Of a stretch of DNA of 46,805 nucleotides, positions 20,537 through 31,904 are shown piece by piece. This DNA is from Minisyncoccota bacterium (GTDB lineage: Bacteria; Patescibacteriota; Minisyncoccia; Minisyncoccales; Minisyncoccaceae). Every line of letters starts with the position of its first letter. Position 1 is the first letter of the stretch. The position numbers and the translations under genes are program-made. The notes beneath the pieces are model-generated. The model was not told the origin of the DNA. It searched no databases and saw only the letters and a list, made by a program, of their open reading frames with translations. The stretch covers positions 1 through 46,805 of the forward strand of contig JBAZLP010000001.1 of NCBI GenBank assembly GCA_041650235.1, in the 5' to 3' direction.

Positions 20537-20542
20537 CCATTA

Positions 20543-21726
20543 TTAAACGAAAGTTATCGCTTCTCCCTTCTTGTTTCCTCTTCCCGTTCTTCCGATCCTG
20601 TGCACGTAGTCATCATATGTGGCCGGGATATCGTAGTTGATGACGTGGCTCACATTGTTTATGTCCAAACCTCTCGCCGCCACGTCGGTCGCAACCAATA
20701 CTTTGACAGTTCCCGCCTTAAAGCAATCGATCGCCCTCTTCCTTCTCGACAGGTTCTTGTCCCCGTGGATCGACTCAGCCATGAAACCCCTTTTGATCAG
20801 AGCTTTGGCGATCTTTTCCACCCCGTATTTGGTCCTTCCGAAAACAAGGACTTTCTTGAATTCTTCCTTGCTCAGATACTCGCAGAGAACATCTATCTTT
20901 TTAGTCGGGTCTCCAACCTTGACTATATCCGGTTGACATTGGCCGATGATTCCTTCTTCTTTACCGAAATCTTTTCCGGATTCTTCAAGAACTGGTTCGA
21001 CAGTTTTTCTATCTCTTCGGGCAGGGTCGCTGAAAAAAGCAGAGCTTGCTTTGCCTCAGGCATCTGTCCTATCAGGAACTTCATGTCCCCGATAAAGCCC
21101 ATGTCGAGCATCCTGTCGGCCTCGTCTAAGACTATCGTCTGGAATGAAGCCATGTTCAGGGCTTTCCTCTGGACCAGATCCTTGATCCTTCCCGGAGTTC
21201 CGATGACGAAATTATTGCTCCTCCTGGTATCCCTCAATTGCCTCCCGATATTCGTTCCGCCTATGCAGAGAAGCGGGAACAGATGCAGCCCGGGAGTGAA
21301 ATCGTTGAATTCCTTTTCTATCTGGAAAGCCAATTCCCTGGTCGGAACGATAATGATGGTTTTGTTCTTCTTGTCCTTTAGGGATTTATTGATCGCCGGT
21401 ATCAAAAAGGCGGCCGTTTTTCCCGTTCCGGTATTGGCTATGCCGACTACATCCCTCCCTTTCAGAATCAGAGGGATTATCTTGTCCTGGATCGGGGTCG
21501 GTTCGCGATATCCCTTGCGGATGATGTTATTCTTCAGCCGGCTGTCTATTTCAAAGTCATCGAACAGGTGCTCCGGGGTATAAACATCGTTTTCGGCGGG
21601 AACCGCTTTCTGGACGAACTTGGCTGTATCTATCCTGGATGCCGAAAAACCTTTCTTTTGAGGAAAGCTCTTCTTGCCGAATCGGGAACGATTATTGAAT
21701 TTTCTACCTTTGAATCTTTTTTGCAT
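20543..21726 (-). pseudogene. DEAD-box ATP-dependent RNA helicase interrupted by a single frameshift near 20926-20935 (pseudogene, programmed shift or sequencing error)
   Basis: The N-terminal ORF carries the Q motif (YREPTPIQ), ANTGTGKTAAF, PTRELA, VLDEADRMLDMGF and SAT. It ends SANVNRI* at 20923. The -1 frame continues directly as PDIVKVGDPTKKIDVLCEYLSKEEFKKVLVFGRTKYGVEKIAKAL...HRIGRTGRG. Confidence 0.65.
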
Positions 21727-21799
21727 ATTATTAAAAAAACGGATCCCCTCCAATACGGAGAATCCGCCCTCGTATCTCAATATCTATGTCCAAACCATA

Positions 21800-22405
21800 T
21801 CATTTTTTTGTCCGTTTGTCAATCTTTTTATCGGCTCTTTTCTTCTTTTCAACCGTCTTTTTAGGCTTCTTCGCCTTCTTCTTGGTCTCGGCTTCGGGAA
21901 GATCATCCTCTTTGGGCTGGCTGGAAGAAGACAATAGCTTGATAATGGTGTCTAATTTGGCATTCAATGACTCAAGCTGATCCTTGTAGTCGGTCTTTTC
22001 CGAAGAACCTCCTTTTTCAAAACATTCTTTGCAATAGACGGCCCTTTCTCCGGTCGGCTTAAAGGGGAGCTCGAAATGCCTTCCGCACTTGTCGCAGACC
22101 GCGTCAAACATTGTCTTATCCTGGAACCTGCGATTTCCTCCGTCTCTCCTTGATCCCGGTCTTTCTCGATTGGAATCACCGCCCCGGCTGTTAAAACATT
22201 GGCTGCAAAAGACCGGCTTGTCTCCTGTCGGCCTGAAAGGAAGTTCGCACCTCTTTCCGCACTCGCTGCACGTCGCCTCATACATCTGAGGCCTTCCCCC
22301 GTCCCGCCTTCCAAAATCTCGCTTTGCGGGGCCCCTCCTCTTGAAATCGGACTCGCTGGCGCTGTTCCTTTTCTCGCGGTCGAAGATATTGTTGAAGTTT
22401 TTCAT
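21800..22405 (-). CDS. Duplicated CxxC-x17-CxxC zinc-ribbon protein with a Lys-rich tail
   Basis: Two repeats: CSECGKRCELPFRPTGDKPVFCSQCF and CDKCGRHFELPFKPTGERAVYCKECF. RG-rich linkers and a KKKAKKPKK tail. The start is taken at MKNFNNIF (ATG 22405), 9 nt downstream of a TATAAT (22415-22420). Confidence 0.7.
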   Translation of the reverse strand: MKNFNNIFDREKRNSASESDFKRRGPAKRDFGRRDGGRPQMYEATCSECGKRCELPFRPTGDKPVFCSQCFNSRGGDSNRERPGSRRDGGNRRFQDKTMFDAVCDKCGRHFELPFKPTGERAVYCKECFEKGGSSEKTDYKDQLESLNAKLDTIIKLLSSSSQPKEDDLPEAETKKKAKKPKKTVEKKKRADKKIDKRTKK

Positions 22406-23239: not shown

Positions 23240-23295
23240 AATTAATATTTTATTTAAAATAGAACTAGCAATAAATCTCTCGCTACTTTTTTATA

Positions 23296-23328
23296 TTGGC
23301 TCGGGAGGTGGAACGAACTTGGAACCTT
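23296..23328 (-). repeat. tRNA-3'-end-like repeat, copy 1 (island distal boundary)
   Basis: Plus strand: ttggctcgggaggtggaacgaacttggaacctt, immediately 3' of the HIT gene stop. Confidence 0.7.
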
Positions 23329-23330
23329 CT

Positions 23331-23714
23331 TTAGTAATTTCCCTTTCCTGGGATCACATTCCTAACACCACCACGAGGATTTTCCACGTCGCCCTTGTAG
23401 CGAGGTATTAAATGTATATGCAGATGCTGAATTGTTCTACCAGCCGCTTCGCCTTCATTAATGCCAATGTTATAGCTATCTGGATTAAATTTATCATCGA
23501 TTATCAGTCTTGTTTTTTGGAGTAATTCGTAAAAATCAGCAAGCTGCTTACTCGTGAGTTCGAAAAATGACACGATATGGTTTTTTGCAATTATTTCACA
23601 ATGCCCGGGAGTTACAGGAAAATCATCGTATCTTGAAAAGAAACTTTGGTTATCGATAATAATTTTATCGTCTTTTTTCTTTTGAATTTCGCAAAAAAAG
23701 CAGTCTTTTTCCAT
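23331..23714 (-). CDS. HIT (histidine triad) family nucleotide hydrolase/transferase
   Basis: QHLHIHLIPR is the HxHxHxx triad. An upstream CFFC zinc-like motif is present. Length 127 aa. Confidence 0.85.
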   Translation of the reverse strand: MEKDCFFCEIQKKKDDKIIIDNQSFFSRYDDFPVTPGHCEIIAKNHIVSFFELTSKQLADFYELLQKTRLIIDDKFNPDSYNIGINEGEAAGRTIQHLHIHLIPRYKGDVENPRGGVRNVIPGKGNY

Positions 23715-23719
23715 GGTTT

Positions 23720-24022
23720 TTATGACTCATCAAGAATTATTTTATCTTTAAACTTACCCCTTTCCTCTGCCTTTTTATTTTTAATTGCTTCTAATTCTTC
23801 TTTGCTAAAATTCTTGAAATTTATTATGGCATCAATAACTTCTAAGATATCTGCCATTTCTTCAGCGTTTTCGTCTTGTATGAATTCATTTACCTCTTCT
23901 TGCAACTTTTCCTTTAATTTCTGCCAGTATTCTTTGTCGTCGGCAATATGAGTAATGGGAATACTCCCCTTGCTTTTAATTATTTCTGGAATTCTATCTC
24001 TGACTAATTTATTGTACCTCAT
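23720..24022 (-). CDS. MazG-like/PRA-PH-like all-alpha NTP pyrophosphohydrolase
   Basis: YNKLVRDRIPEII N-terminus, with EE..E and EEMADILEV acidic helices typical of the house-cleaning NTP-PPase family. Length 100 aa. Confidence 0.6.
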   Translation of the reverse strand: MRYNKLVRDRIPEIIKSKGSIPITHIADDKEYWQKLKEKLQEEVNEFIQDENAEEMADILEVIDAIINFKNFSKEELEAIKNKKAEERGKFKDKIILDES

Positions 24023-24028
24023 GTCTTT

Positions 24029-24037
24029 ATCTTACCA
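24029..24037 (-). promoter_or_regulatory. Extended -10 (TGGTAAGAT) 6 nt upstream of ATG 24022
   Basis: The minus strand reads TGGTAAGAT-AAAGAC-ATG. Confidence 0.4.
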
Positions 24038-24065
24038 AAAAACCACTTTAATTAAAAGGCGGCTT

Positions 24066-24099
24066 GACGACTCGGAAGATACAACAAGCTTGGAACCTT
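24066..24099 (-). repeat. tRNA-3'-end-like repeat, copy 2
   Basis: Plus strand: gacgactcggaagatacaacaagcttggaacctt, about 30 nt 3' of the hydrolase stop. Confidence 0.6.
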
Positions 24100-24129
24100 T
24101 TTAATTTCAATGCCTGGTTATTAATATAT

Positions 24130-24894
24130 TTATATTTTATTTATCCAGTTATTTAATATTTCCTTAACTTCTTTTAGATGCTTCGGTTTGCTAAAAACAT
24201 GATCTGCATCTTTAATGACATAAAACTTCTTATCACTCGGTAAAGCTTCGTATAAAATTTTCTGATGGCCAACCGGGGTTGATTCATCGTTTTCTCCTGC
24301 AACCAGCAACGTGGGCATGGTTATTTTTCTAACTTGAGTTAAAAGATTATATTTTAATCTATCCTCCATATGCGACCAAGGGATTTTTTTAAAAGTTCCC
24401 GGCTTTGATTTTCTTTCAGAAATTCGCCAACCTGTTCGTTGCCACTCCATTATCGCTTCAGGATTATTCTTAAGAGATAACTCACCGGAAACAACTGTAG
24501 ATAATAAGGAGATGGCTTTAACTTTTTCTGGATGATTTTCGGCATATAATGCTACTGCAATCCCGCCCAAGCTATGCCCGGCTAAAACAAATGGCTCTTG
24601 ATAAAAATCATTGCTTTTTACCCAGTTAATAACGTCTTCCAAGTCTTCGTAGTAATTCGTTGTTGTTGCATTTTCATAGTTCCCGTCGCTTTCACCAAAA
24701 GTATTTGTTGCATCAAATCGTATTGTATTATAATTACGCTCCAAGAAAACTTCTGCGCAAATTTCTATTATTGGCTGATTCTTAGATCCGCCCAGGCCGT
24801 GCATAATAAAAACCAGTCCAACCGGATTTTCTGCCTTTTGAAGTACTACAGATATTTTCTGATTTTTTCTATTCTTAATATATATCTTTTCCAC
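24130..24894 (-). CDS. Alpha/beta-fold hydrolase
   Basis: HGLGG oxyanion region, nucleophile elbow GHSLGG, and late Asp (GENDES) and His (DADHVF). Confidence 0.8.
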   Translation of the reverse strand: MEKIYIKNRKNQKISVVLQKAENPVGLVFIMHGLGGSKNQPIIEICAEVFLERNYNTIRFDATNTFGESDGNYENATTTNYYEDLEDVINWVKSNDFYQEPFVLAGHSLGGIAVALYAENHPEKVKAISLLSTVVSGELSLKNNPEAIMEWQRTGWRISERKSKPGTFKKIPWSHMEDRLKYNLLTQVRKITMPTLLVAGENDESTPVGHQKILYEALPSDKKFYVIKDADHVFSKPKHLKEVKEILNNWINKI

Positions 24895-24910
24895 AAATAT
24901 AACTTTAAGC

Positions 24911-25213
24911 TCATCCTTTAGTTCTAACGTTAATCCCGTTAATTTTTTCGTATTCGCGCTTTTCGTTTTTTGATATCTTTTTTACTATTTCCTCCTCTAA
25001 ATCAACCTTTAACATCTCAGAAAGTCCCATTAAGTATATTGCTACGTCGGCAAGCTCTTCGCCTAAATCGTCTTTCTTCTTCCTGTATGCATCATACGCC
25101 TCTCCTAATTCTCCATAGGTAAAACAAAATTCTTTATTAACATCTTCTGTGTTGAAATTTTTGTTCAATTTATTTTGGAATATTTCCTTTTGAATCTTTT
25201 TTAAATCTATCAT
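24911..25213 (-). CDS. MazG-type nucleotide pyrophosphohydrolase domain protein
   Basis: GELGEAYDAY ... LGEELADVAIYLMGLSEML. The EExxE/EELAD acidic motifs belong to the MazG family. Length 100 aa. Confidence 0.7.
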   Translation of the reverse strand: MIDLKKIQKEIFQNKLNKNFNTEDVNKEFCFTYGELGEAYDAYRKKKDDLGEELADVAIYLMGLSEMLKVDLEEEIVKKISKNEKREYEKINGINVRTKG

Positions 25214-25242
25214 GTTGTTGATTAAAATGCCTTATTATTTTT

Positions 25243-25277
25243 ATTATATCATAAAGCAAAAACCGACAAAAGTCGGC
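25243..25277 (-). promoter_or_regulatory. Terminator hairpin (25258-25277) plus extended -10 TGATATAAT (25243-25251), module copy 3
   Basis: The minus strand reads CCGAC-TTTT-GTCGG TTTTTGCTTTA TGATATAAT. Confidence 0.55.
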
Positions 25278-25283
25278 TCTATA

Positions 25284-25316
25284 TTGGCTCGGAAGATGGA
25301 ACGAACTTAGAACCTT
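25284..25316 (-). repeat. tRNA-3'-end-like repeat, copy 3
   Basis: Plus strand: ttggctcggaagatggaacgaacttagaacctt. Confidence 0.7.
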
Positions 25317-25341
25317 TTTAGATTTAAATGCTAATTTAATT

Positions 25342-25782
25342 TCAATAACAAAAACAATTTTCTAAAAACTTTTTTTGCTCTTTTATCATTTTATTGGGTA
25401 ATTTTTTAAAATATTTGAGCTCACTAGAATTTTCGTCGGGTTGAAAGTTATTGCTAGTTGGCTTAACTTCTATTGCAACACTTACGCTATGGAATTGAAC
25501 ATTTGAACGAATTTCATTCAAAAATTCTATATATCCAAGGAATTTTTTCGGCATTACAATTAAACCAGTTTCATCTTTTGCTATTCTTAATATAGCGTTA
25601 GATATTTTTTCTTTTTTAAAAACTGTTCCACCAGGTAAATGCCAAAAACCTTTACGTGGGTCGATTGCTCTTTTGGTAAGCAAAATCCCTTCTTTAGATT
25701 TTATTATAAGATCTACACAGAGGCGTGGGACCTTGCTGTAAATATCAAAAAAATCTTTTTCACTTAATGGATATTTACTCAT
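25342..25782 (-). CDS. NUDIX hydrolase
   Basis: Nudix box GGTVFKKEKISNAILRIAKDETGL (Gx5Ex7R.xx.ExG; the second Glu position is degenerate). Confidence 0.75.
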   Translation of the reverse strand: MSKYPLSEKDFFDIYSKVPRLCVDLIIKSKEGILLTKRAIDPRKGFWHLPGGTVFKKEKISNAILRIAKDETGLIVMPKKFLGYIEFLNEIRSNVQFHSVSVAIEVKPTSNNFQPDENSSELKYFKKLPNKMIKEQKKFLENCFCY

Positions 25783-25807
25783 ATTTATATTTTATTAATA
25801 ATAAAAT

Positions 25808-25816
25808 ATTATATCA
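25808..25816 (-). promoter_or_regulatory. Extended -10 (TGATATAAT) upstream of the Nudix gene
   Basis: The minus strand reads CGTGATATAAT, 25 nt from ATG 25782. Confidence 0.4.
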
Positions 25817-25851
25817 CGTAAAGAAAAAACAACAAAATATCTGCTTTAGAT

Positions 25852-25883
25852 TTGCTCGGGAAGTGGAACGAACTTGGAACCTT
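25852..25883 (-). repeat. tRNA-3'-end-like repeat, copy 4
   Basis: Plus strand: ttgctcgggaagtggaacgaacttggaacctt. Confidence 0.7.
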
Positions 25884-25935
25884 TTTGGTTCTAAATATCT
25901 TAGAATAAAAAAGAACGAGGTAGTAATCTCGCCTG

Positions 25936-26274
25936 TCATTCATCGAAAACTTTTTTGTTTTCTCTGATCCAAGGAATCACCTCGTCTAATATCTGCGGGT
26001 ACTCCGAAGACGGAATACTTTCTTTTGTTTTCAAAACGGCTATGGTCCACAAGTCGGTCACGCCGCCCAGTCCCATAAAATGAAATCTGATACGGCGGAG
26101 AATGTATAGTATTCCATCCTTTTGAGTGAAGAAATACGTTTCTTTCTCGTCAATGACCTCGCTCGAACTTTCAAATTCGAGATCATTTAATCCGTATTTT
26201 TCTACGAATTCTCCATACTCTTTACCGCGAGTGCTATCGCAAATACCATCAATAATTTCAATTCTGGGTCTCAT
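25936..26274 (-). CDS. Hypothetical protein (112 aa)
   Basis: Clean ORF with its own TTGACA-17-TATTAT promoter (26293-26321). No motif recognised. Confidence 0.55.
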   Translation of the reverse strand: MRPRIEIIDGICDSTRGKEYGEFVEKYGLNDLEFESSSEVIDEKETYFFTQKDGILYILRRIRFHFMGLGGVTDLWTIAVLKTKESIPSSEYPQILDEVIPWIRENKKVFDE

Positions 26275-26322
26275 TTTTATGACTTCGACAAAATAATACT
26301 ATATTTATATAGTATTGTCAAG

Positions 26323-26354
26323 TTGCTCGGTAAGTGGGACAAACTTGGAACCTT
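26323..26354 (-). repeat. tRNA-3'-end-like repeat, copy 5
   Basis: Plus strand: ttgctcggtaagtgggacaaacttggaacctt. Confidence 0.65.
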
Positions 26355-26374
26355 TTTGGTTTCCTAATTTTGGC

Positions 26375-27418
26375 TTATTTGTGGGGAGGATTTTCATAAC
26401 ATAGAAAATCGGCTTCCGCATTACCAATATTTTTAATCCCGTGAGATTGTTTTGGTAATATCCTAACTTGAGGCAATTTATTTAGAAATAATTCATTAAT
26501 CTTTCTCGGTCTATTCCCTTGGTATTTCATTACGGTGGACTTTCCATTAATATTTATTTCTAATTTTCCATTTATTAAATAGTAAATATGTTCGGTGTAT
26601 GGATGCTCGTGAGGTTCCATAATAATATTCGGCTTGATAATAATATATGAAAAAGGAGACTTTCCCTTGAAAGGGACCAAACTAACTCCAGCCACGCCTT
26701 TATAAATTGTTGTTCTTTTGAAATCAGGGATAGAATTCTTTTTTCTTGGCTTAAATCCCCAAGTCCAAACCCTGGACTGAATCCCCTCACTCGGTCTTCG
26801 ATATGGAACTAATAATGATTGAATTGCTTCAAAACCATTTTTCCTTAACTCTGATTTTAAATATTGTGGAGATGTAAAATAATAATCAGCTCTTGAAATA
26901 TATTCTATGTCTTCATTATTGGATGTGGATTCGTTGCTAATAAATAATAATCCTTGCTCTTTCAAAACTTTTTTATTTTCTTTTATAAATTTTTTTACTG
27001 ATAATTTACTATCTAGTAAATGACCAATCAAACCATCTGAAAAAGATAAATCGAAATAATTTTCTTTTAACCCAAAAGGTTTGCTAGCATTTAGGACTCT
27101 AGTTTTTAGTCCTTTATTCTTGGCAAATCCTAGGGCAGATTCACAAACATCAGTTGCTAGAACGTTATGACTCGAGTCTAATAATAATCTTTCTATAAAA
27201 GCGTTACCACATCCGCAACTTAAAATTCTATTACCGGAAGTGTAATTCAATAATTTATTTAAAATTACTATCATTCTTTCTCGGTATTTTTTATGCGATG
27301 TGGATGGAGTCATCGAGTTTCCCATATTTTTTCCGTTTTCCCAGATTTCAAATCTCGTCTTTCCGTTTTCAACTGGAGACTCGTAATACTTTTTAATTTT
27401 ATTAATAGAATTTCTCAT
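26375..27418 (-). CDS. Class I SAM-dependent methyltransferase fused to a C-terminal cupin domain
   Basis: SAM motif I ILSCGCGNAFIE followed by D-V(LATDV). The C-terminal beta-barrel has HEHPYTEHIYYLING...HGIKN (cupin His ligands). Confidence 0.65.
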   Translation of the reverse strand: MRNSINKIKKYYESPVENGKTRFEIWENGKNMGNSMTPSTSHKKYRERMIVILNKLLNYTSGNRILSCGCGNAFIERLLLDSSHNVLATDVCESALGFAKNKGLKTRVLNASKPFGLKENYFDLSFSDGLIGHLLDSKLSVKKFIKENKKVLKEQGLLFISNESTSNNEDIEYISRADYYFTSPQYLKSELRKNGFEAIQSLLVPYRRPSEGIQSRVWTWGFKPRKKNSIPDFKRTTIYKGVAGVSLVPFKGKSPFSYIIIKPNIIMEPHEHPYTEHIYYLINGKLEININGKSTVMKYQGNRPRKINELFLNKLPQVRILPKQSHGIKNIGNAEADFLCYENPPHK

Positions 27419-27442
27419 AGCTGCAAAATTTTCATTGTTTAA

Positions 27443-27480
27443 ATTATATCACAAAACAAAAACCGACAAAAGTCGGTTTT
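27443..27480 (-). promoter_or_regulatory. Terminator hairpin (27459-27480) plus extended -10 TGATATAAT (27443-27451), module copy 4
   Basis: The minus strand reads AAAACCGAC-TTTT-GTCGGTTTT TGTTTTG TGATATAAT. Confidence 0.55.
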
Positions 27481-27484
27481 GGAA

Positions 27485-27517
27485 CTGCTCCGATTGATAG
27501 ACGACATTAGAACTTCT
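27485..27517 (-). repeat. tRNA-3'-end-like repeat, copy 6 (most divergent; keeps the TGCTCCG of the tRNA)
   Basis: Plus strand: ctgctccgattgatagacgacattagaacttct. Confidence 0.5.
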
Positions 27518-27547
27518 TTATTAAAAATTAATAAATAAAATTTAAAA

Positions 27548-29782
27548 TCAAGCCTCAAGAGGAATCTCAATAGATGTTTCTATTTGAATCATACTTAATA
27601 CTTCTTGATGCAAATCAATTGAATCATCTTCTTGCATATCTTCTATAGAAAGAATTATTGAATATGGCTGCTTATAGCCAGATGGCAATCCATTATCTTT
27701 GGATTCGCAAAAAATGTTTAATTCCCAAAAATTTCCTGTATGTTTCATTGTAGAAACCTCTAGTGCTGGATAACACTTAACATTTGACTTTGTGTGAGCT
27801 CCGTCGTCTGAATTACGAGTGCTAAAACTATCTAAATTTTTTTGATCTTCACGTATAAACTGAACAGAAATATTAATCGGATTATACGTTCTTACATTTT
27901 TATGATTAATCGGACTAGAATATACGAGAGTTTTTCTAACCTTTAAGCGTTTCCTACTGCTTCCAGATATGCAACTAGGTATTGGAAATTTAATAGTCTT
28001 TTTTTTATTTATTCCTATCTCGTCTTCGATCACCAAAGTTGAAGAAGAATTTAGTGAATACATTGCCTTTTCTAAATTAGGCATTCCGAATCCAGATAAT
28101 TTCTTTTTCATAGTTTCATTTGTAATGCAATCACATCTTATTGATTCAGCAAAATGGATAAGAAGAGCCTTAATTGTATCTTTATTGTATTCTGGATAAA
28201 AATTATGCAACAAACAGGCCTCATGTAAAACTAATGGTGCCGCAAAACTTGTCCCTGAAGCTTTAGTAAGTTTATCGCTTTGCTTAGATGCCAAATAAAC
28301 ACCATTATATTCACAGCTAAAATCTCTTTTATGATTAGAATCATAATGTACAAAGTCTGGCTTAATAAATGGTACCGCATCTAAATTTGCTCTAGTTATT
28401 ACAACTGGATTTTTAATTTTTGTTATAGAATCAACACTTTCCTGATACGCTATTGATCCTACTGATATATTATTTATACTGTCTGAGGGTGGAATAATTC
28501 TACATATCGGCAGTTTAAAATAATTAGGATATCCCATTGCCTTGACCATCCTTTTTTCGTTTGCCCCCCAATCCCTATCAAAAAGATTACCAACTGAAAT
28601 AAAAAATAAACAATTATACTTATAAGAAAGTTCGTCCAATAATTTAGTTAATTTATCTACTTTTTTTCTATTATAATATATATAATTATTAATTGAAAAA
28701 TTTATTAACATCATTTGATAATTTGCTGCATTTCTCTCAATTGCTTCAATCAGCCTCTCTTCTAATCTTAAAAAATAACCTCCTCCTTCTGATAAATCGA
28801 CTGCTATAACTTTATTATCTTGCTGAATGCTGCCAGTAATATTAAGATGATGGCCACATACGACTAAGCTAGCAACAGCCGTAGCATGATCTTTATTGCC
28901 AGTATGTAACCCTACTTTTCCAACCATTGCCCCTCTAAGAATTACGTGCTGATCATTTACCGCTCCATCAAAGACAAATGCTGGCTCTCCGTTACTCAAT
29001 GGTGGTAAAATATTAAAATCGTCTATATTTCTTTCTAATGAAGATCCAATTAGGGTGTAATCAGGAGACTGCTCTATTTCAATTATTCCTTCATAATTTT
29101 TATGCAAAACTTCCACGTCATTAAACTTCGCTTTCATTCTACAAAAATGTAATAGTTCTGTATTAACTTTTGAAATAAACTTTTCGGGAAATTGCTCTTT
29201 AATAGCGTCGATTTTTGTATTTGCAATATTTTGCTTATCAGCAAACGAAACATCGATAAATACCTCCTGACTTGGATTTGTTTTCATCTTCCTCTTCAAT
29301 TCTTTTTCGATTATTTCTTCAAGGGTTAACGGTTTTATTTCTCTAATTTTTTCGAAATAAGACTTTAATTTCCCTTCCTCTACATAAGCAATGGCTTCAT
29401 CTTGCAAACGTCCAAAATCAGATTTTCCGCCATCTAATGATTTGCTGCTAATTTTACCATAGATAGTTGTGTTTTTTTCTCTATTCTCTTCTTGACGATA
29501 AACCTGTATTCTATATTTCGATAAAAAATCTGGGTTTACGGGACCATAAAATTTAATTTTAATTTCATTGGTTTGCTTATCGGTATCAATTTTAAAGGAT
29601 TCTTCTTTTTTAGAGAAAAAACTGCTAATCCTATTTACACCGCTTAAAACCTTTTGCTGTTGTTTTTCTCTATTAAATTCACCCAATGCTTTAAAATTCC
29701 TCCGTGGGGGAGCAGTATATGTATTCTCGCTGGAAAATAATTGACCAGGAATTTTAATATGTTTATATTTTTTTCTTGGCAT
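27548..29782 (-). CDS. Subtilase (peptidase S8) with a ~270-aa unknown N-terminal domain; IetS-like
   Basis: Catalytic triad contexts AFVFDGAV (Asp), DHATAVASLVV (His) and SGTSFAAPLV (Ser). No signal peptide, so predicted cytoplasmic. The ATG lies 20 nt inside the upstream ATPase gene. Confidence 0.85.
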   Translation of the reverse strand: MPRKKYKHIKIPGQLFSSENTYTAPPRRNFKALGEFNREKQQQKVLSGVNRISSFFSKKEESFKIDTDKQTNEIKIKFYGPVNPDFLSKYRIQVYRQEENREKNTTIYGKISSKSLDGGKSDFGRLQDEAIAYVEEGKLKSYFEKIREIKPLTLEEIIEKELKRKMKTNPSQEVFIDVSFADKQNIANTKIDAIKEQFPEKFISKVNTELLHFCRMKAKFNDVEVLHKNYEGIIEIEQSPDYTLIGSSLERNIDDFNILPPLSNGEPAFVFDGAVNDQHVILRGAMVGKVGLHTGNKDHATAVASLVVCGHHLNITGSIQQDNKVIAVDLSEGGGYFLRLEERLIEAIERNAANYQMMLINFSINNYIYYNRKKVDKLTKLLDELSYKYNCLFFISVGNLFDRDWGANEKRMVKAMGYPNYFKLPICRIIPPSDSINNISVGSIAYQESVDSITKIKNPVVITRANLDAVPFIKPDFVHYDSNHKRDFSCEYNGVYLASKQSDKLTKASGTSFAAPLVLHEACLLHNFYPEYNKDTIKALLIHFAESIRCDCITNETMKKKLSGFGMPNLEKAMYSLNSSSTLVIEDEIGINKKKTIKFPIPSCISGSSRKRLKVRKTLVYSSPINHKNVRTYNPINISVQFIREDQKNLDSFSTRNSDDGAHTKSNVKCYPALEVSTMKHTGNFWELNIFCESKDNGLPSGYKQPYSIILSIEDMQEDDSIDLHQEVLSMIQIETSIEIPLEA

Positions 29783-30893
29783 AATTCTTATAAGAATTTC
29801 TATGTATACCTAATGTTTCTGACATTTTAAGCTTAGAACATCCAGTACTTTCCATTATCCCACAAAGGTCTGATAAGATTTTACGATGTTGTTTTTTTAA
29901 ATTTTTTGGATTTTTGAGATAATCTTCGGTAAACAATGTTTTTACAAAATCAACTAAATCTGTTTCTTTTTTACCTTCTATTAAATTATTAATTACCGTT
30001 TTGTCAAAAAATACTTTTATTTCGTCAACAGTATTAATTTTCAAAGCATCTAAAGCTTCTGTTAAAAACTTTTTTTCTTTATCGCTTATTTTTATTTTAC
30101 TTATTTTTGTTTGAGTTTTATTTATTAAATAATTAAAAAAGTTTTCTTTTTCTCCATCAACCAACTCATCAACCAATATTTTAAATTTAAATCTCCTCAA
30201 AATAGCTGGATCTATAGATTCTAATAAATTTGTAGCAACAATGATTATTTTGTTTCCAGAATTAAAATCTAGAGTTTGTATAATGGAATTTACTATTCTC
30301 TTAAGTTCTCCTACATCATTTTTGTCTGTACGATTTTTTGCGAACGCATCAAATTCATCTATAAAAATAACCGTATTTTCTATACTTTTAAAAACATCTG
30401 CGATATTATGCATTGTTTCGCCAAGTCTAGACGATATAACGTCCGTTATCTTAACATAACTTATATTTTTTTTGAGTTTGTTGGCAATATAGAATCCTAT
30501 CGTTGTTTTTCCACTTCCTGGTGGTCCATAGAGCAAAATTTTATTAAATTGATCTGCAATTTGTGGTACTTTAACCTTTTGATGCAATTTTATAAATTTA
30601 TCTAATTTTGGTTCAATACTTGGAGCTATCCAAATATTTTCTATGTCTAAAAAAAGATTAGAATCATTATTAATTGGATTAAAATTAGACAAACTTGGCA
30701 TAATAGAAGATTTCTCATCTGAATATTCTTCTATGAGATCTAAAAAATTATTATACGATTTATGTCTATTGGCTTTAATCTCTTTTGCTGCGGTTTCTTC
30801 AATAATTTTAACTATTGCCGCTCTATCTCCCTTTAGTCCCAACTCCGCCAATTTTAAAACTAGGTCTTTTTTTGAGTTCATATTGTTATGCAC
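29763..30893 (-). CDS. AAA+ ATPase with a C-terminal Fis-type HTH-like tail; IetA-like
   Basis: Walker A GPPGSGKTT, Walker B VIFIDEFDA, sensor/Arg-finger region ATNLLESIDPAILRRF. The tail is CSKLKMSETLGIHRNSYKNYAKK. The track start 30893 is a GTG, and ATG 30881 (MNSKKDL) is an equally possible start. Confidence 0.85.
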   Translation of the reverse strand: MHNNMNSKKDLVLKLAELGLKGDRAAIVKIIEETAAKEIKANRHKSYNNFLDLIEEYSDEKSSIMPSLSNFNPINNDSNLFLDIENIWIAPSIEPKLDKFIKLHQKVKVPQIADQFNKILLYGPPGSGKTTIGFYIANKLKKNISYVKITDVISSRLGETMHNIADVFKSIENTVIFIDEFDAFAKNRTDKNDVGELKRIVNSIIQTLDFNSGNKIIIVATNLLESIDPAILRRFKFKILVDELVDGEKENFFNYLINKTQTKISKIKISDKEKKFLTEALDALKINTVDEIKVFFDKTVINNLIEGKKETDLVDFVKTLFTEDYLKNPKNLKKQHRKILSDLCGIMESTGCSKLKMSETLGIHRNSYKNYAKKKI

Positions 30894-30995: not shown

Positions 30996-31844
30996 GTGGA
31001 TATTCTTGATTATCCACTAATAACAAAAGAAGAACATGATCAAATCCAAATTATACTTGGTAAAAAAGGAAGGCCTCGTCCTAGAACTCATGAATTCCCT
31101 TTTACTGGAATGATAACCTGTGGCGAATGCGGAGCAATGATTACAGCTGAAGATAAAACCAAAAGGCAAAAAAATGGAAATGTCCATAATTACACCTACT
31201 ATCACTGCACAAAAAAGAAAAATCCTAATTGCACACAAAAAAATATCAAAAAAGAATGTCTAGAAAAACAGATTATTGATATTTTAGAATCAATAGAGAT
31301 TCCAAGTGAATTCAAGGAATGGGCTTTAGACGTTTTGAAAGAAGAAAATGCTAAAGAGTTTGTCAATAAAGAAATTATTTTGAGCTCTCAACAAAAAAAC
31401 TATAATTCATGCATCAGAAGAATAAATAATTTAATTGATATGAGGGCAAATGAAGAAATTACAGAGGAAGAATTCTCTAAAAAAAGAAAAGAGCTAACTC
31501 AAGAAAAAGAAAAAATTAAAATTATTTTAGAAAATAGTGATGAGCAAGTTAATGATTGGGCTGAAAAAGCGACACAATTATTTTCATTTGCAGAATTAGC
31601 TAAAACTAAATTTGAAAATGGATCATTAGAAGACAAAAAAACTATTCTTTCTTGTTTAGGTTCGAACCTCTCACTAAAAGATGACAAACTCAGTATAGAA
31701 CTACAAAAACCATTACGTCTAATAGAAAAAGCATCTTTAGAGGTAAAGACTATCAACGAAAGGTTAGAACCTGTTGATTTTAGCTTAGATAAAAGAAAAA
31801 TGGGAGAAATATACTCCCAAAGTCCTATGTTGCTCCGGTGGTAG
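30996..31844 (+). pseudogene. 5'-truncated large serine recombinase (zinc-ribbon + coiled-coil C-terminal part only)
   Basis: It begins at a GTG with ...PLITKEEHDQIQ, then the recombinase zinc beta-ribbon FTGMITCGECGAMITAEDK...YTYYHCTKKK, then a long coiled coil. The resolvase catalytic domain and most of the recombinase domain are absent, with only 100 nt upstream. The last 12 nt overlap the 3' end of tRNA-Asn on the other strand. Confidence 0.7.
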
Positions 31845-31904
31845 GATTCGAACCTACAACCTAATGCTTAACAGGCATCCGCGCTACCATTGCGCCACAC
31901 CGGA
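31833..31904 (-). tRNA. tRNA-Asn (anticodon GTT), 72 nt, CCA not encoded
   Basis: Hand fold: TCCGGTG TG GCGC AATGGTA GCGC G GATGC CTGTTAA GCATT AGGTT GTAGG TTCGAAT CCTAC CACCGGA G. The acceptor stem has a perfect 7 bp, the T-loop is TTCGAAT, and the anticodon loop is CT-GTT-AA. Confidence 0.9.

What the first reader, a model, noticed from the sequence alone, without database searches (positions are those of the whole stretch)
23296..27517. Six degenerate copies of the tRNA-Asn 3' end punctuate the island into six gene cassettes
A ~33-nt motif recurs six times, always in the tRNA's orientation and always just 3' of a gene or gene pair. The copies are at 23296, 24066, 25284, 25852, 26323 and 27485.

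Plus-strand alignment against the tRNA:
- tRNA: TGCTCCGGTGGTAGGATTCGAACCTACAACCT
- Copy 4: TGCTCGGGAAGTGGAA--CGAACTTGGAACCT
- Copy 5: TGCTCGGTAAGTGGGA--CAAACTTGGAACCT
- Copy 1: GGCTCGGGAGGTGGAA--CGAACTTGGAACCT
- Copy 3: GGCTCGGAAGATGGAA--CGAACTTAGAACCT
- Copy 2: GACTCGGAAGATACAA--CAAGCTTGGAACCT
- Copy 6: TGCTCCGATTGATAGA--CGACATTAGAACTT

Read on the minus strand, several copies end ...CCGAGCCA, an acceptor-plus-CCA-like end.

The segments between copies are HIT+MazG-like, hydrolase+MazG, Nudix, a hypothetical gene, MTase-cupin, and finally ATPase+protease+recombinase remnant. This looks like repeated site-specific insertion at the same tRNA site, with each event displacing and then decaying the previous att/tRNA-end copy. 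Alternatively it could be an integron-like cassette array that uses a tRNA-derived recombination site. I am not aware of either as a described arrangement for such small (0.45-1.2 kb) single-function cassettes.
Basis: partly seen in the sequence, partly recalled or inferred. Interest (0 to 1): 0.7.

Follow-up and report, generated by a model that had tools for sequence, protein, structure and literature searches.

The report
tRNA-mimic repeats bounding mobile gene cassettes
A 33-base imitation of the end of the tRNA-Asn gene follows each small accessory-gene cassette in this island; the same motif marks cassettes in many candidate-phyla-radiation (CPR) bacteria and most likely serves as the recombination site that stacks cassettes next to the tRNA gene.

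Summary
The repeat is real. Five copies (c1-c5) are far beyond chance; the sixth (c6) is marginal by sequence alone.

It is not a decaying copy of the host tRNA end. It is a sharply bounded, strongly conserved 33-nt block, AAAAAGGTTCCAAGTTCGTYCCAYYTMCCGAGC. I found 76 distinct copies in CPR genomes and metagenomes (Paceibacterota, Minisyncoccales, Saccharibacteria). Each lies just 3' of a co-oriented accessory gene and before a terminator hairpin and promoter.

Three results tie it to tRNA-Asn:
- Undeleted intermediate copies match the tRNA end at 24 of 26 bases.
- The last copy of at least nine arrays abuts the sequence that directly follows tRNA-Asn in an unoccupied genome.
- A sister strain has a different cassette set starting exactly at the tRNA 3' end.

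The far ends of large-serine-recombinase (LSR) islands inserted in tRNA-Asn carry the same 2-nt-short mimic, and one locus shows two such islands stacked. c6 is probably the far end of the LSR/IetAS island.

Best reading: repeated site-specific insertion at tRNA-Asn of recombinase-less cassettes carrying an element-borne att arm. This resembles SCCmec accretion and works like an integron. Recombination itself was not shown. It is a new variant of a known kind.

The parts
31832..31904 (-). tRNA-Asn(GTT) gene. It is the head of the array and the presumed primary attachment site (left arm of attB).
   Evidence: ARAGORN. Rfam tRNA, 74 bits. In sister strain L054 the same 3' end is followed directly by a cassette's terminator/promoter module.
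30996..31844 (+). N-terminally truncated large serine recombinase (zinc-ribbon and coiled-coil part only). Its last five codons overlap the tRNA 3' end.
   Evidence: Pfam Zn_ribbon_recom only. There are 177 homologues. Full-length relatives carry Resolvase, Recombinase and Zn_ribbon domains and abut tRNA-Asn, -Gln or -Ser.
27548..30893 (-). IetA (AAA ATPase, 29763-30893) and IetS (S8 protease, 27548-29782) defence pair. It is the cargo of the LSR island.
   Evidence: Pfam. PADLOC: IetA 1.9e-56, IetS 9.2e-55.
27485..27519 (-). c6, a divergent copy. It is probably the far (attR-type) junction of the LSR/IetAS island. It shares CGGAGCA with the host tRNA end.
   Evidence: PWM -16.2 bits, rank 8. 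21/35 identity to the consensus against a background of 8.8 +/- 2.6. It resembles the island-end arms in L062 and L065.
27438..27479 (-). Terminator hairpin (CCGACTTTTGTCGG plus a T run) and TGnTATAAT promoter module in front of the methyltransferase-cupin gene.
   Evidence: (families D2, D4).
26375..27418 (-). Cassette gene: methyltransferase-cupin fusion.
   Evidence: Pfam.
26323..26357 (-). c5, motif copy.
   Evidence: PWM 60.3 bits. nhmmer E=1e-12.
25936..26274 (-). Cassette gene: 112-aa protein with no family match.
25852..25886 (-). c4, motif copy.
   Evidence: PWM 65.4 bits. nhmmer E=1e-13.
25342..25782 (-). Cassette gene: Nudix hydrolase. A 76%-identical copy lies 7 nt after tRNA-Gln in L036 and is followed there by an undeleted tRNA-like copy.
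25285..25319 (-). c3, motif copy, followed by the terminator hairpin at 25263-25276 and a promoter.
   Evidence: PWM 49.2 bits..
24130..25213 (-). Two-gene cassette: MazG-like (24911-25213) and alpha/beta hydrolase (24130-24894).
   Evidence: Pfam. Homology with sister strain L054 resumes at about 24901.
24068..24102 (-). c2, degenerate motif copy.
   Evidence: PWM 27.1 bits. nhmmer E=8e-8.
23331..24022 (-). Two-gene cassette: MazG-like 100-aa protein (23720-24022) and HIT hydrolase (23331-23714).
   Evidence: Pfam.
23297..23331 (-). c1, the terminal motif copy, at the low-GC/high-GC boundary of the island.
   Evidence: PWM 59.3 bits. GC profile.
23275..23296 (-). Remnant of the native tRNA-Asn downstream flank (AATATAAAAAAGTAGCGAGAGA). 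It marks the original right side of the insertion site.
   Evidence: The same sequence directly follows the real tRNA-Asn in L009 and follows the terminal motif copy in at least 8 other arrays (alignment A2).

Best explanation
**What the motif is.** It is an element-borne attachment-site arm. It imitates the last ~33 nt of tRNA-Asn (variable loop, T-arm, acceptor 3' strand), is 2 nt shorter, and has a broken T-stem. It is carried at the 3' end of small, recombinase-less gene cassettes. Each cassette has the order: terminator, promoter, one or two accessory genes, motif.

**How the array forms.** Cassettes, and larger islands that encode a large serine recombinase (LSR), insert one after another at the 3' end of the tRNA-Asn gene. 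The crossover lies at or next to ...GAGC|A. Each newcomer pushes earlier ones away from the tRNA. The tRNA end acts as the first 'site' of the array, and the last motif copy abuts the old tRNA flank.

**This window, in order.** tRNA-Asn; an LSR remnant plus IetAS island whose far junction is c6; cassettes ending in c5, c4, c3, c2 and c1; then the native flank.

**Shown**
- The anatomy.
- The conservation.
- The positional equivalence with the tRNA end.
- The strain polymorphism.
- The presence of the same kind of arm at the ends of LSR islands.
- Tandem LSR islands.

**Inferred**
- The small cassettes move by site-specific recombination.
- An LSR acting in trans is the enzyme.
- The exact crossover position.
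For: 1. **Conservation.** The profile HMM gave 97 hits at E<=1e-3, which collapse to 76 distinct copies in CPR genome and metagenome contigs. The information block is sharply bounded to 33 nt, and the flanks are unconserved.
2. **Cassette anatomy.**
   - The upstream gene is co-oriented in 59/71 copies, with a median gap of 18 nt.
   - A terminator-like hairpin follows in 56/76.
   - Spacing is 407-2919 nt, median 738, apart from one 7493-nt gap.
   - Cargo is accessory: hydrolases, GNAT, CYTH, Nudix, Cap15, VanX. About half have no family.
3. **Homology to tRNA-Asn.**
   - Nine undeleted copies match the pattern AGGTTCGAATCCTATCNCCCGAGCAA. The best matches the tRNA end at 24/26 and they occupy the same position as the motif.
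   - The three tRNA-Asn genes rank 1-3 of 18 tRNAs for similarity.
4. **Positional equivalence.**
   - L009 has tRNA-Asn followed by ATATGAAAAAGTATCGAGAGAC.
   - The same flank follows the terminal motif copy in the window (c1) and in L001, L003, L004, L010, L018, L027, L041 and L043.
   - In L054 the real tRNA end is followed by a cassette's terminator/promoter module, exactly as a motif copy would be.
5. **Polymorphism with junctions at the motif or tRNA 3' edge.**
   - L054 vs the window (95-98.5% identical flanks, different cassettes).
   - L004 vs L013 (97.5% identical up to ...CCCGAGC|, then one extra cassette).
   - L054 vs L041 and L006 vs L026.
6. **LSR link.**
   - Relatives of the window's LSR remnant always abut tRNA genes.
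   - The far ends of LSR islands at tRNA-Asn carry the same 2-nt-short mimic: L062 22/35, L065 24/35 and c6 21/35 identity to the motif, against a background of 8.8 +/- 2.6.
   - L065 has two LSR elements stacked at tRNA-Asn, with the first element's arm joined to the second's LSR end.
Against: - No recombination event, circular junction or enzyme activity was observed.
- Most arrays have no recombinase within the 8-14 kb available. Only W, L004 and L031 have LSR fragments. Two tyrosine recombinases lie far from motifs.
- Sequence to the right of the junction is poorly conserved (0.1-0.7 bits), whereas canonical serine-integrase sites have two recognisable half-sites.
- Arrays also occur after other tRNA genes and after groES, so tRNA-Asn is not the only site.
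- Some cassette breakpoints are not at a motif edge: window ~24901, and L035 inside the motif.
- Breakpoints at motif edges would also arise from homologous recombination within the shared motif.
- Island-end arms are only 60-70% like the cassette motif.
Confidence: 0.6

Rival explanations
1. **Homology-driven cassette exchange.** The motif, together with the similar terminator/promoter module, is a shared 'handle'. It lets cassettes be swapped or inserted by RecA recombination after DNA uptake. No site-specific enzyme is involved.
For: - Every cassette is flanked on both sides by near-identical 33-nt blocks and often by similar terminator modules.
- Breakpoints at motif edges are what recombination inside a shared block would give.
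- No recombinase lies next to most arrays.
Against: - 33 nt is near the lower limit for RecA recombination.
- Conservation stops abruptly at both motif edges rather than tapering.
- Array heads are real tRNA-Asn ends only about 70% like the motif, too diverged for homologous exchange, yet the junction is exact.
- The same arm type sits at the ends of LSR islands.
Confidence: 0.15
2. **RNA-level 3'-UTR element.** The motif is transcribed between the stop codon and the terminator. It acts in the mRNA as a binding, processing or stability signal that borrows tRNA-like sequence. Its association with cassettes is secondary.
For: - It always lies on the sense strand, 2-55 nt after a stop codon and before a terminator.
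- Conservation is base-by-base over 33 nt.
- A possible 5-bp stem (GUUCG/CGAGC) encloses all the variable positions.
Against: - There is no covariation, and the predicted stem is only -3.5 kcal/mol.
- There is no Rfam match.
- A 3' half of a tRNA cannot fold alone.
- This reading does not explain why the terminal copies abut the native tRNA-Asn flank, why array heads are real tRNA ends, or why LSR island ends carry the same sequence.
Confidence: 0.12
3. **The first reader's main reading.** Each copy is the host's own tRNA-Asn 3' end, displaced by an insertion and then decaying by mutation.
For: The same orientation as the tRNA, the order along the island, and the terminal copy at the island boundary.
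Against: - The copies resemble the cross-genome consensus, built from other genomes, far more than they resemble the host tRNA.
- They share the same 2-nt deletion and the same extra AAAAA.
- They show about 1.8 bits per position of conservation.
- Independent decay cannot converge in this way.
Confidence: 0.05

Closest known systems
SCC/SCCmec composite islands at rlmH (orfX) in staphylococci, built by the large serine recombinases CcrAB/CcrC
   Same: - Serine-recombinase elements insert repeatedly at the 3' end of one conserved gene without destroying it.
- The elements stack in tandem.
- Each element is bounded by a repeat of the integration-site sequence.
- Recombinase-less 'pseudo' elements sit in the arrays and are thought to be moved in trans.
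   Different: - The target here is a tRNA gene.
- The units are single-gene cassettes of 0.4-1.6 kb with their own promoter and terminator.
- The repeated site is a 33-nt conserved tRNA mimic rather than a 15-18-nt direct repeat.
- The hosts are CPR bacteria, and the same site is shared across phyla.
Integrons (IntI tyrosine recombinase, attI, attC cassettes), especially chromosomal arrays with near-identical attC such as the Vibrio cholerae repeats (own knowledge)
   Same: - Arrays of small, co-oriented accessory-gene cassettes.
- Each cassette has a recombination-site-like repeat at its 3' end.
- A fixed primary site lies at the head.
- The cargo spectrum is similar: Nudix, GNAT, hydrolases and many unknowns.
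- Strains differ in cassette content.
   Different: - No IntI gene is present.
- The motif has no attC-type imperfect palindrome and no GTTRRRY core.
- The cassettes carry their own promoters and terminators.
- The associated recombinase family is serine-type.
- The head site is a tRNA 3' end.
Tandem accretion of integrative elements and integrase-less cis-mobilisable elements (CIMEs) at tRNA or other gene 3' ends, and tRNA-flanked hypervariable islands with repeated partial tRNA copies, e.g. Prochlorococcus islands (own knowledge)
   Same: - The insertion point is a tRNA 3' end.
- Repeated partial tRNA sequences lie inside the island.
- Non-autonomous units are flanked by att sites.
   Different: - In those systems the repeats are exact duplicates of the host tRNA end, made by tyrosine integrases.
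- Here the repeat is a diverged, deleted and strongly conserved mimic.
- It travels with tiny cassettes and is found at many loci.
pdif modules (XerC/XerD-dependent) on Acinetobacter plasmids (own knowledge)
   Same: Small single-function modules bounded by short recombination sites, with no recombinase of their own.
   Different: pdif sites are 28-bp imperfect palindromes in alternating orientation. The motif here is non-palindromic and always in direct orientation.

Membership tests
Integron | An intI tyrosine integrase gene next to the array. | tested here: not met
   The only recombinase at the head of the window's array is a serine-recombinase remnant (Pfam). Among 150 neighbouring proteins in 44 loci, two Phage_integrase proteins were found, 4.6 and 11 kb from any motif.
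Integron | attC sites: imperfect inverted repeats (R''-L''/L'-R') that fold as a hairpin, with a GTTRRRY core. | tested here: not met
   The motif has no inverted repeat. The consensus fold gives only a 5-bp stem at -3.5 kcal/mol with no covariation. By inspection of the consensus there is no GTTRRRY.
Integron | An array of co-oriented small cassettes, each with its site at the 3' end. | tested here: met
   The cassettes here carry their own promoters and terminators, unlike most integron cassettes.
Large-serine-recombinase integrative element (att sites) | An LSR gene (Resolvase, Recombinase and Zn_ribbon domains) at one end, next to the target gene. | tested here: inconclusive
   The window has only the C-terminal 282 aa. 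Full-length relatives occupy the same DnaG-RpoD-tRNA-Asn position in L061 and the tRNA-Asn position in L065. L066 shares the synteny but holds only a contig-cut 254-aa fragment. The small cassettes have none.
Large-serine-recombinase integrative element (att sites) | A short identical core shared by the two junctions, and an element-side arm resembling the target-side arm. | tested here: met
   c6 and the tRNA end share CGGAGCA. L062 shares CGGAGCAGA. The arms of c6, L062 and L065 are 21-24/35 identical to the cassette motif.
Large-serine-recombinase integrative element (att sites) | Two recognisable half-sites flanking the crossover. | tested here: not met
   At cassette junctions only the left side is conserved. 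The right side has 0.1-0.7 bits per position.
Large-serine-recombinase integrative element (att sites) | Recombination catalysed by the LSR between these sites. | not testable with these tools
   This needs an in vivo or in vitro assay, or read-level junction evidence.
tRNA gene or pseudogene | A cloverleaf detectable by tRNA models. | tested here: not met
   ARAGORN and Rfam find only the real tRNA-Asn. The motif lacks a 5' half, and its T-stem cannot pair.
REP/MITE-type intergenic repeat | Palindromic structure or terminal inverted repeats, in either orientation, spread over the whole genome. | tested here: not met
   The motif is non-palindromic. It is co-oriented with the upstream gene in 59 copies against 2 opposite. 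In the 46.8-kb window it is confined to the island, and it has zero matches in viral contigs.

The most novel reading that the evidence does not exclude
CPR bacteria have an integron-like gene-capture system that does not use an integron integrase. A tRNA-targeting large serine recombinase inserts and excises promoter-bearing single-gene cassettes. The 3' end of tRNA-Asn (and, less often, other tRNAs) serves as the fixed entry site. A conserved 33-nt tRNA mimic serves as the cassette site. The same cassettes circulate between CPR phyla.
Probability: 0.35. Interest if true: 0.8.

Novelty: new variant of a known kind. Interest (0 to 1): 0.68.

Why it matters
CPR/Patescibacteria have tiny genomes, and little is known about how they gain and exchange accessory genes.

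- **A trackable marker.** A compact cassette system marked by one 33-nt sequence would give a simple, searchable marker for their flexible gene pool. That pool includes defence genes such as IetAS and Cap15 and nucleotide-housekeeping genes such as Nudix, MazG and HIT.
- **A second route to gene capture.** It would show a route to integron-like gene capture that is independent of integron integrases.
- **A candidate genetic tool.** It would offer a natural, defined docking site (tRNA-Asn plus a 33-nt arm) and a candidate serine integrase for genetic tools in organisms that are very hard to manipulate.
- **A caution for annotators.** Truncated 'zinc-ribbon' ORFs beside tRNA genes are recombinase remnants.

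Tried and rejected
- **Known RNA family.** Rfam at gathering and at permissive thresholds gave only the tRNA, a group I intron and LOOT RNAs elsewhere. Nothing matched the conserved tRNA-Asn downstream flank.
- **tRNA-like fold.** ARAGORN is negative. The consensus fold shows no supported structure.
- **Phage origin.** There were zero matches to the motif in 2.9 million viral contigs.
- **Significance of the tRNA similarity from this window alone.** It is weak. The profile HMM does not hit the tRNA.
- **sigma-54-like or direct-repeat protein-binding reading of the opposite strand.** I considered this from the sequence. It has the wrong -12 element, and nothing else supports it.
- **Tyrosine recombinase or Xer/dif-type site.** The motif has no dyad symmetry, and no linked integrase was found.
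- **IS200/IS605-type hairpin ends.** The downstream hairpins vary freely in sequence, unlike transposase-specific hairpins.
- **Long target-site duplication (CRISPR or casposon-like).** Neighbouring copies are not identical, and the copies differ from the tRNA.
- **LSR relatives at tRNA-Gln, tRNA-Ser and marine tRNA-Asn** (L048, L050, L056-L060). No motif lies within reach. These loci show that the LSR family exists without cassette arrays.
- **Organism name** via cluster look-up: no names were returned.
- **Literature search.** It failed six times. Prior description could not be checked, and all comparisons with known systems rest on my own knowledge.

Full report
**1. Setting**

The window holds one tRNA gene, tRNA-Asn(GTT), at 31832-31904 on the minus strand. 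Between it and about 23300 lies a stretch of 26-37% GC inside a genome of about 45-50% GC. All genes in this stretch are on the minus strand, apart from one plus-strand ORF (30996-31844). That ORF ends inside the tRNA 3' end and has only the zinc-ribbon part of a large serine recombinase (LSR).

- HIT with a MazG-like protein.
- Alpha/beta hydrolase with MazG.
- Nudix.
- A 112-aa unknown.
- A methyltransferase-cupin fusion.
- An AAA ATPase with an S8 protease. PADLOC identifies this pair as the IetA/IetS defence system.

**2. The repeat in the window**

Read on the minus strand, the motif is AAAAAGGTTCCAAGTTCGTYCCAYYTMCCGAGC.

- A degenerate pattern finds c1, c3, c4 and c5, with none expected by chance.
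- A weight matrix built only from copies in other genomes scores c4, c5, c1, c3 and c2 at 65, 60, 59, 49 and 27 bits. The best chance window scores -14.7.
- c6 scores -16.2, rank 8 of 93,542 windows. It is not separable from chance by that test.
- c6 nevertheless has 21/35 identity to the consensus, against a background of 8.8 +/- 2.6.

Each copy lies after a stop codon. After about 8 nt it is followed by a terminator-type hairpin with a T run, then a TGnTATAAT promoter for the next gene.

**3. The repeat elsewhere**

An exact-pattern scan of one genome per species found the motif in Paceibacterota, Minisyncoccales and unnamed CPR MAGs, and five times in a complete 655-kb Saccharibacteria chromosome. 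A metagenome scan added 31 loci. Viral contigs gave none.

A profile HMM gave 97 hits at E<=1e-3, which collapse to 76 distinct copies.

- Information content is about 1.7-2.0 bits at nearly every position across exactly 33 nt. It falls to background on both sides.
- The upstream gene is co-oriented in 59 of 71 scorable cases, with a median gap of 18 nt.
- The downstream gene is co-oriented in 57 of 67.
- A terminator-like hairpin follows in 56 of 76.
- Successive copies are 407-2919 nt apart, median 738, apart from one 7493-nt gap.
- Genes preceding the motif are accessory: hydrolases, GNAT, CYTH, HAD, Nudix, LysE, VanX, Cap15 and LRR. About half have no family.

So the copies are not decaying relics. 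The motif is a constrained element that travels with small cassettes.

**4. Relation to tRNA-Asn**

Within this window the similarity is weak. Only c1 and c3 beat shuffles, at about 0.01-0.02, and the profile does not hit the tRNA. Comparative data settle the question.

- (a) Nine 'undeleted' copies match the pattern AGGTTCGAATCCTATCNCCCGAGCAA and occupy the same position as the motif. They occur after groES in L006, after ORFs in L018 and L036, and 11-19 nt after tRNA-Lys and tRNA-Asp. The best is 24/26 identical to the tRNA-Asn end.
- (b) Of 18 tRNAs in the loci, the three tRNA-Asn genes rank first to third in similarity to both forms.
- (c) In L009 the real tRNA-Asn is followed by ATATGAAAAAGTATCGAGAGACCGG.... 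That flank follows the terminal motif copy in the window (c1) and in L001, L003, L004, L010, L018, L027, L041 and L043.

**5. Strain polymorphism**

L054 is a 6-kb contig of GCA_028705915.1. It is 95% identical to the window through DnaG, RpoD and the tRNA, and 98.5% identical from the hydrolase to the flank.

Between these two stretches L054 has only the following, in order:

- tRNA-Asn 3' end.
- Terminator and promoter.
- A 138-aa gene.
- A motif copy.
- Terminator and promoter.
- The hydrolase.

L054 lacks the LSR remnant, IetAS, c6, the methyltransferase-cupin, c5, the 112-aa gene, c4, Nudix, c3 and MazG. The real tRNA end thus plays the role of 'motif number zero', and the variable part starts exactly at ...GGAGCA|A.

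Other pairs behave in the same way:

- L004 and L013 are 97.5% identical up to ...CCCGAGC|. L013 then has one extra cassette before the tRNA-Asn-type flank.
- The 138-aa cassette of L054 recurs in L041 after a degenerate motif copy, with homology starting at GCAAATT.
- The window's Nudix cassette recurs, at 76% amino-acid identity, 7 nt after tRNA-Gln in L036.

Not every breakpoint is at a motif edge. Exceptions are window ~24901 and L035.

**6. The recombinase lead**

The window's LSR remnant has 177 homologues. Many are similarly truncated ~275-300-aa ORFs.

Eleven relatives, twelve loci counting the window, were examined for a tRNA next to the LSR gene's 3' end.

| tRNA at the 3' end | Loci |
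|---|---|
| tRNA-Asn | W, L058-L060, L061, L062/L063, L065, L066 |
| tRNA-Gln | L048, L050 |
| tRNA-Ser | L056, L057 |
| none found | L049, L064 |

In L061 the annotated LSR gene stops about 330 nt short of the tRNA, but the intervening sequence reads as further LSR C-terminal coding.

L061 and L066 share the window's DnaG-RpoD-tRNA-Asn-LSR order.

Where the far end of such an island is visible, it carries the same kind of 2-nt-short tRNA mimic:

- L062: AGGTTCTAACTTCGTCCAGTAGACGGAGCAG, 22/35 to the cassette motif.
- L065: ACAGGTTCGCAGGTCGTTCAACATGCGGAGCAG, 24/35.

c6 belongs with these. It shares CGGAGCA with the host tRNA end and is followed by an ordinary cassette terminator/promoter module. 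I read it as the far junction of the LSR/IetAS island, which inserted at the head of an existing cassette array.

L065 shows stacking directly. Its order is: tRNA-Asn, a full-length LSR, island, arm, then the C-terminal end of an older LSR remnant. The remnant's reading frame runs on into the arm.

**7. Interpretation**

The simplest account is serial site-specific insertion at the tRNA-Asn 3' end. The inserted units carry an element-side att arm that imitates the tRNA end. They are of two kinds: autonomous LSR islands, and small cassettes without a recombinase.

The logic is that of SCCmec accretion at rlmH, and functionally that of an integron. It is not a member of the integron family, because it has no IntI and no attC structure.

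Three steps are inferred and not shown:

- The small cassettes move as units by site-specific recombination.
- An LSR acts on them in trans.
- The exact position of the crossover.

The main weaknesses are these:

- Most arrays have no recombinase nearby.
- The right side of the junction is poorly conserved.
- Arrays occur at other sites.

**8. Rivals**

- Homologous exchange through the shared block remains possible. It fits poorly with the abrupt conservation edges and with exact junctions at real tRNA ends.
- An RNA 3'-UTR role fits the position and strand. It has no structural support and does not explain the tRNA-flank and island-end evidence.
- The 'decaying displaced tRNA end' reading is contradicted for c1-c5.

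**9. Limits**

- The literature tool failed on all six attempts. Whether this repeat has been described could not be checked.
- Comparisons with SCCmec, integrons, CIMEs and pdif modules come from my own knowledge.
- Loci were limited to 8-20 kb, so genome-wide co-occurrence with recombinases could not be measured.

Noticed in passing
L054:3385-3610 (sister strain; the corresponding point in the window is between 31870 and 31871): The tRNA-Asn of the sister strain is interrupted in the anticodon loop by a 226-nt group I intron (Rfam RF00028, 90 bits). The window's tRNA-Asn has none. L062/L063 have a larger insertion, about 560 nt, at the same place. ARAGORN misses these tRNAs.
   Followed up: partly
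window 27548-30893: The AAA ATPase and S8 protease pair matches the IetA/IetS defence system (PADLOC E=1.9e-56 and 9.2e-55). It sits between the recombinase remnant and c6.
   Followed up: yes
window 30996-31844, and homologues P0002-P0120: N-terminally truncated recombinase ORFs of very similar length (~275-300 aa, zinc ribbon plus coiled coil, intact reading frame) recur next to tRNA genes in many CPR lineages and a few other phyla. Either islands decay in a repeatable way, or the fragment has a function of its own, for example blocking further insertion.
   Followed up: partly
window ~20931 (DEAD-box helicase gene, 20542-21780, minus strand): The window has a 1-nt deletion relative to a 99.87%-identical contig (L051). 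It splits the 412-aa helicase into a 285-aa ORF. This is a real frameshift or an assembly error.
   Followed up: partly
L009:217-320; also L003:1226-1330, L004:7883-7990, L041, L043: The ~100 nt after tRNA-Asn (ATATGAAAAAGTATCGAGAGACCGG...GGCACTTCTTTTGAAGTGTTTT) are conserved across several genomes and contain two hairpins. There is no Rfam match. This could be a small RNA, a leader, or the right arm of the attachment site.
   Followed up: partly
L004:2812-2926 and L041:11330-11445: LOOT RNA (RF03000) genes lie inside or near the variable regions. In L004 the LOOT RNA is next to a rolling-circle Rep-like gene in the island.
   Followed up: no
L052 (Logan contig, identical to window 27471-23299): An independent assembly's contig starts in the hairpin loop after c6 and ends 2 nt short of the 3' edge of c1. 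This suggests graph branching, i.e. alternative junctions or shared repeats, at exactly these sites in that sample.
   Followed up: no
L009:4937-4995 and L031:2693-2640 (minus): A third conserved right-hand flank (CCAAGTAGTGAGGGGCTCTAGGAGACCGGTTACCGTCAGG) follows motif copies in two unrelated contigs. It is possibly the native flank of another insertion site.
   Followed up: no
L031:795-2443 (minus): A reverse transcriptase fused or adjacent to a trypsin-like protease (a defence-type RT) lies between motif-bearing cassettes and a recombinase fragment.
   Followed up: no
window 22019-22285: A 93-nt internal direct repeat (71% identity) corresponds to the two treble-clef zinc-finger units of one gene (PF23477). 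It is an ordinary domain duplication.
   Followed up: yes
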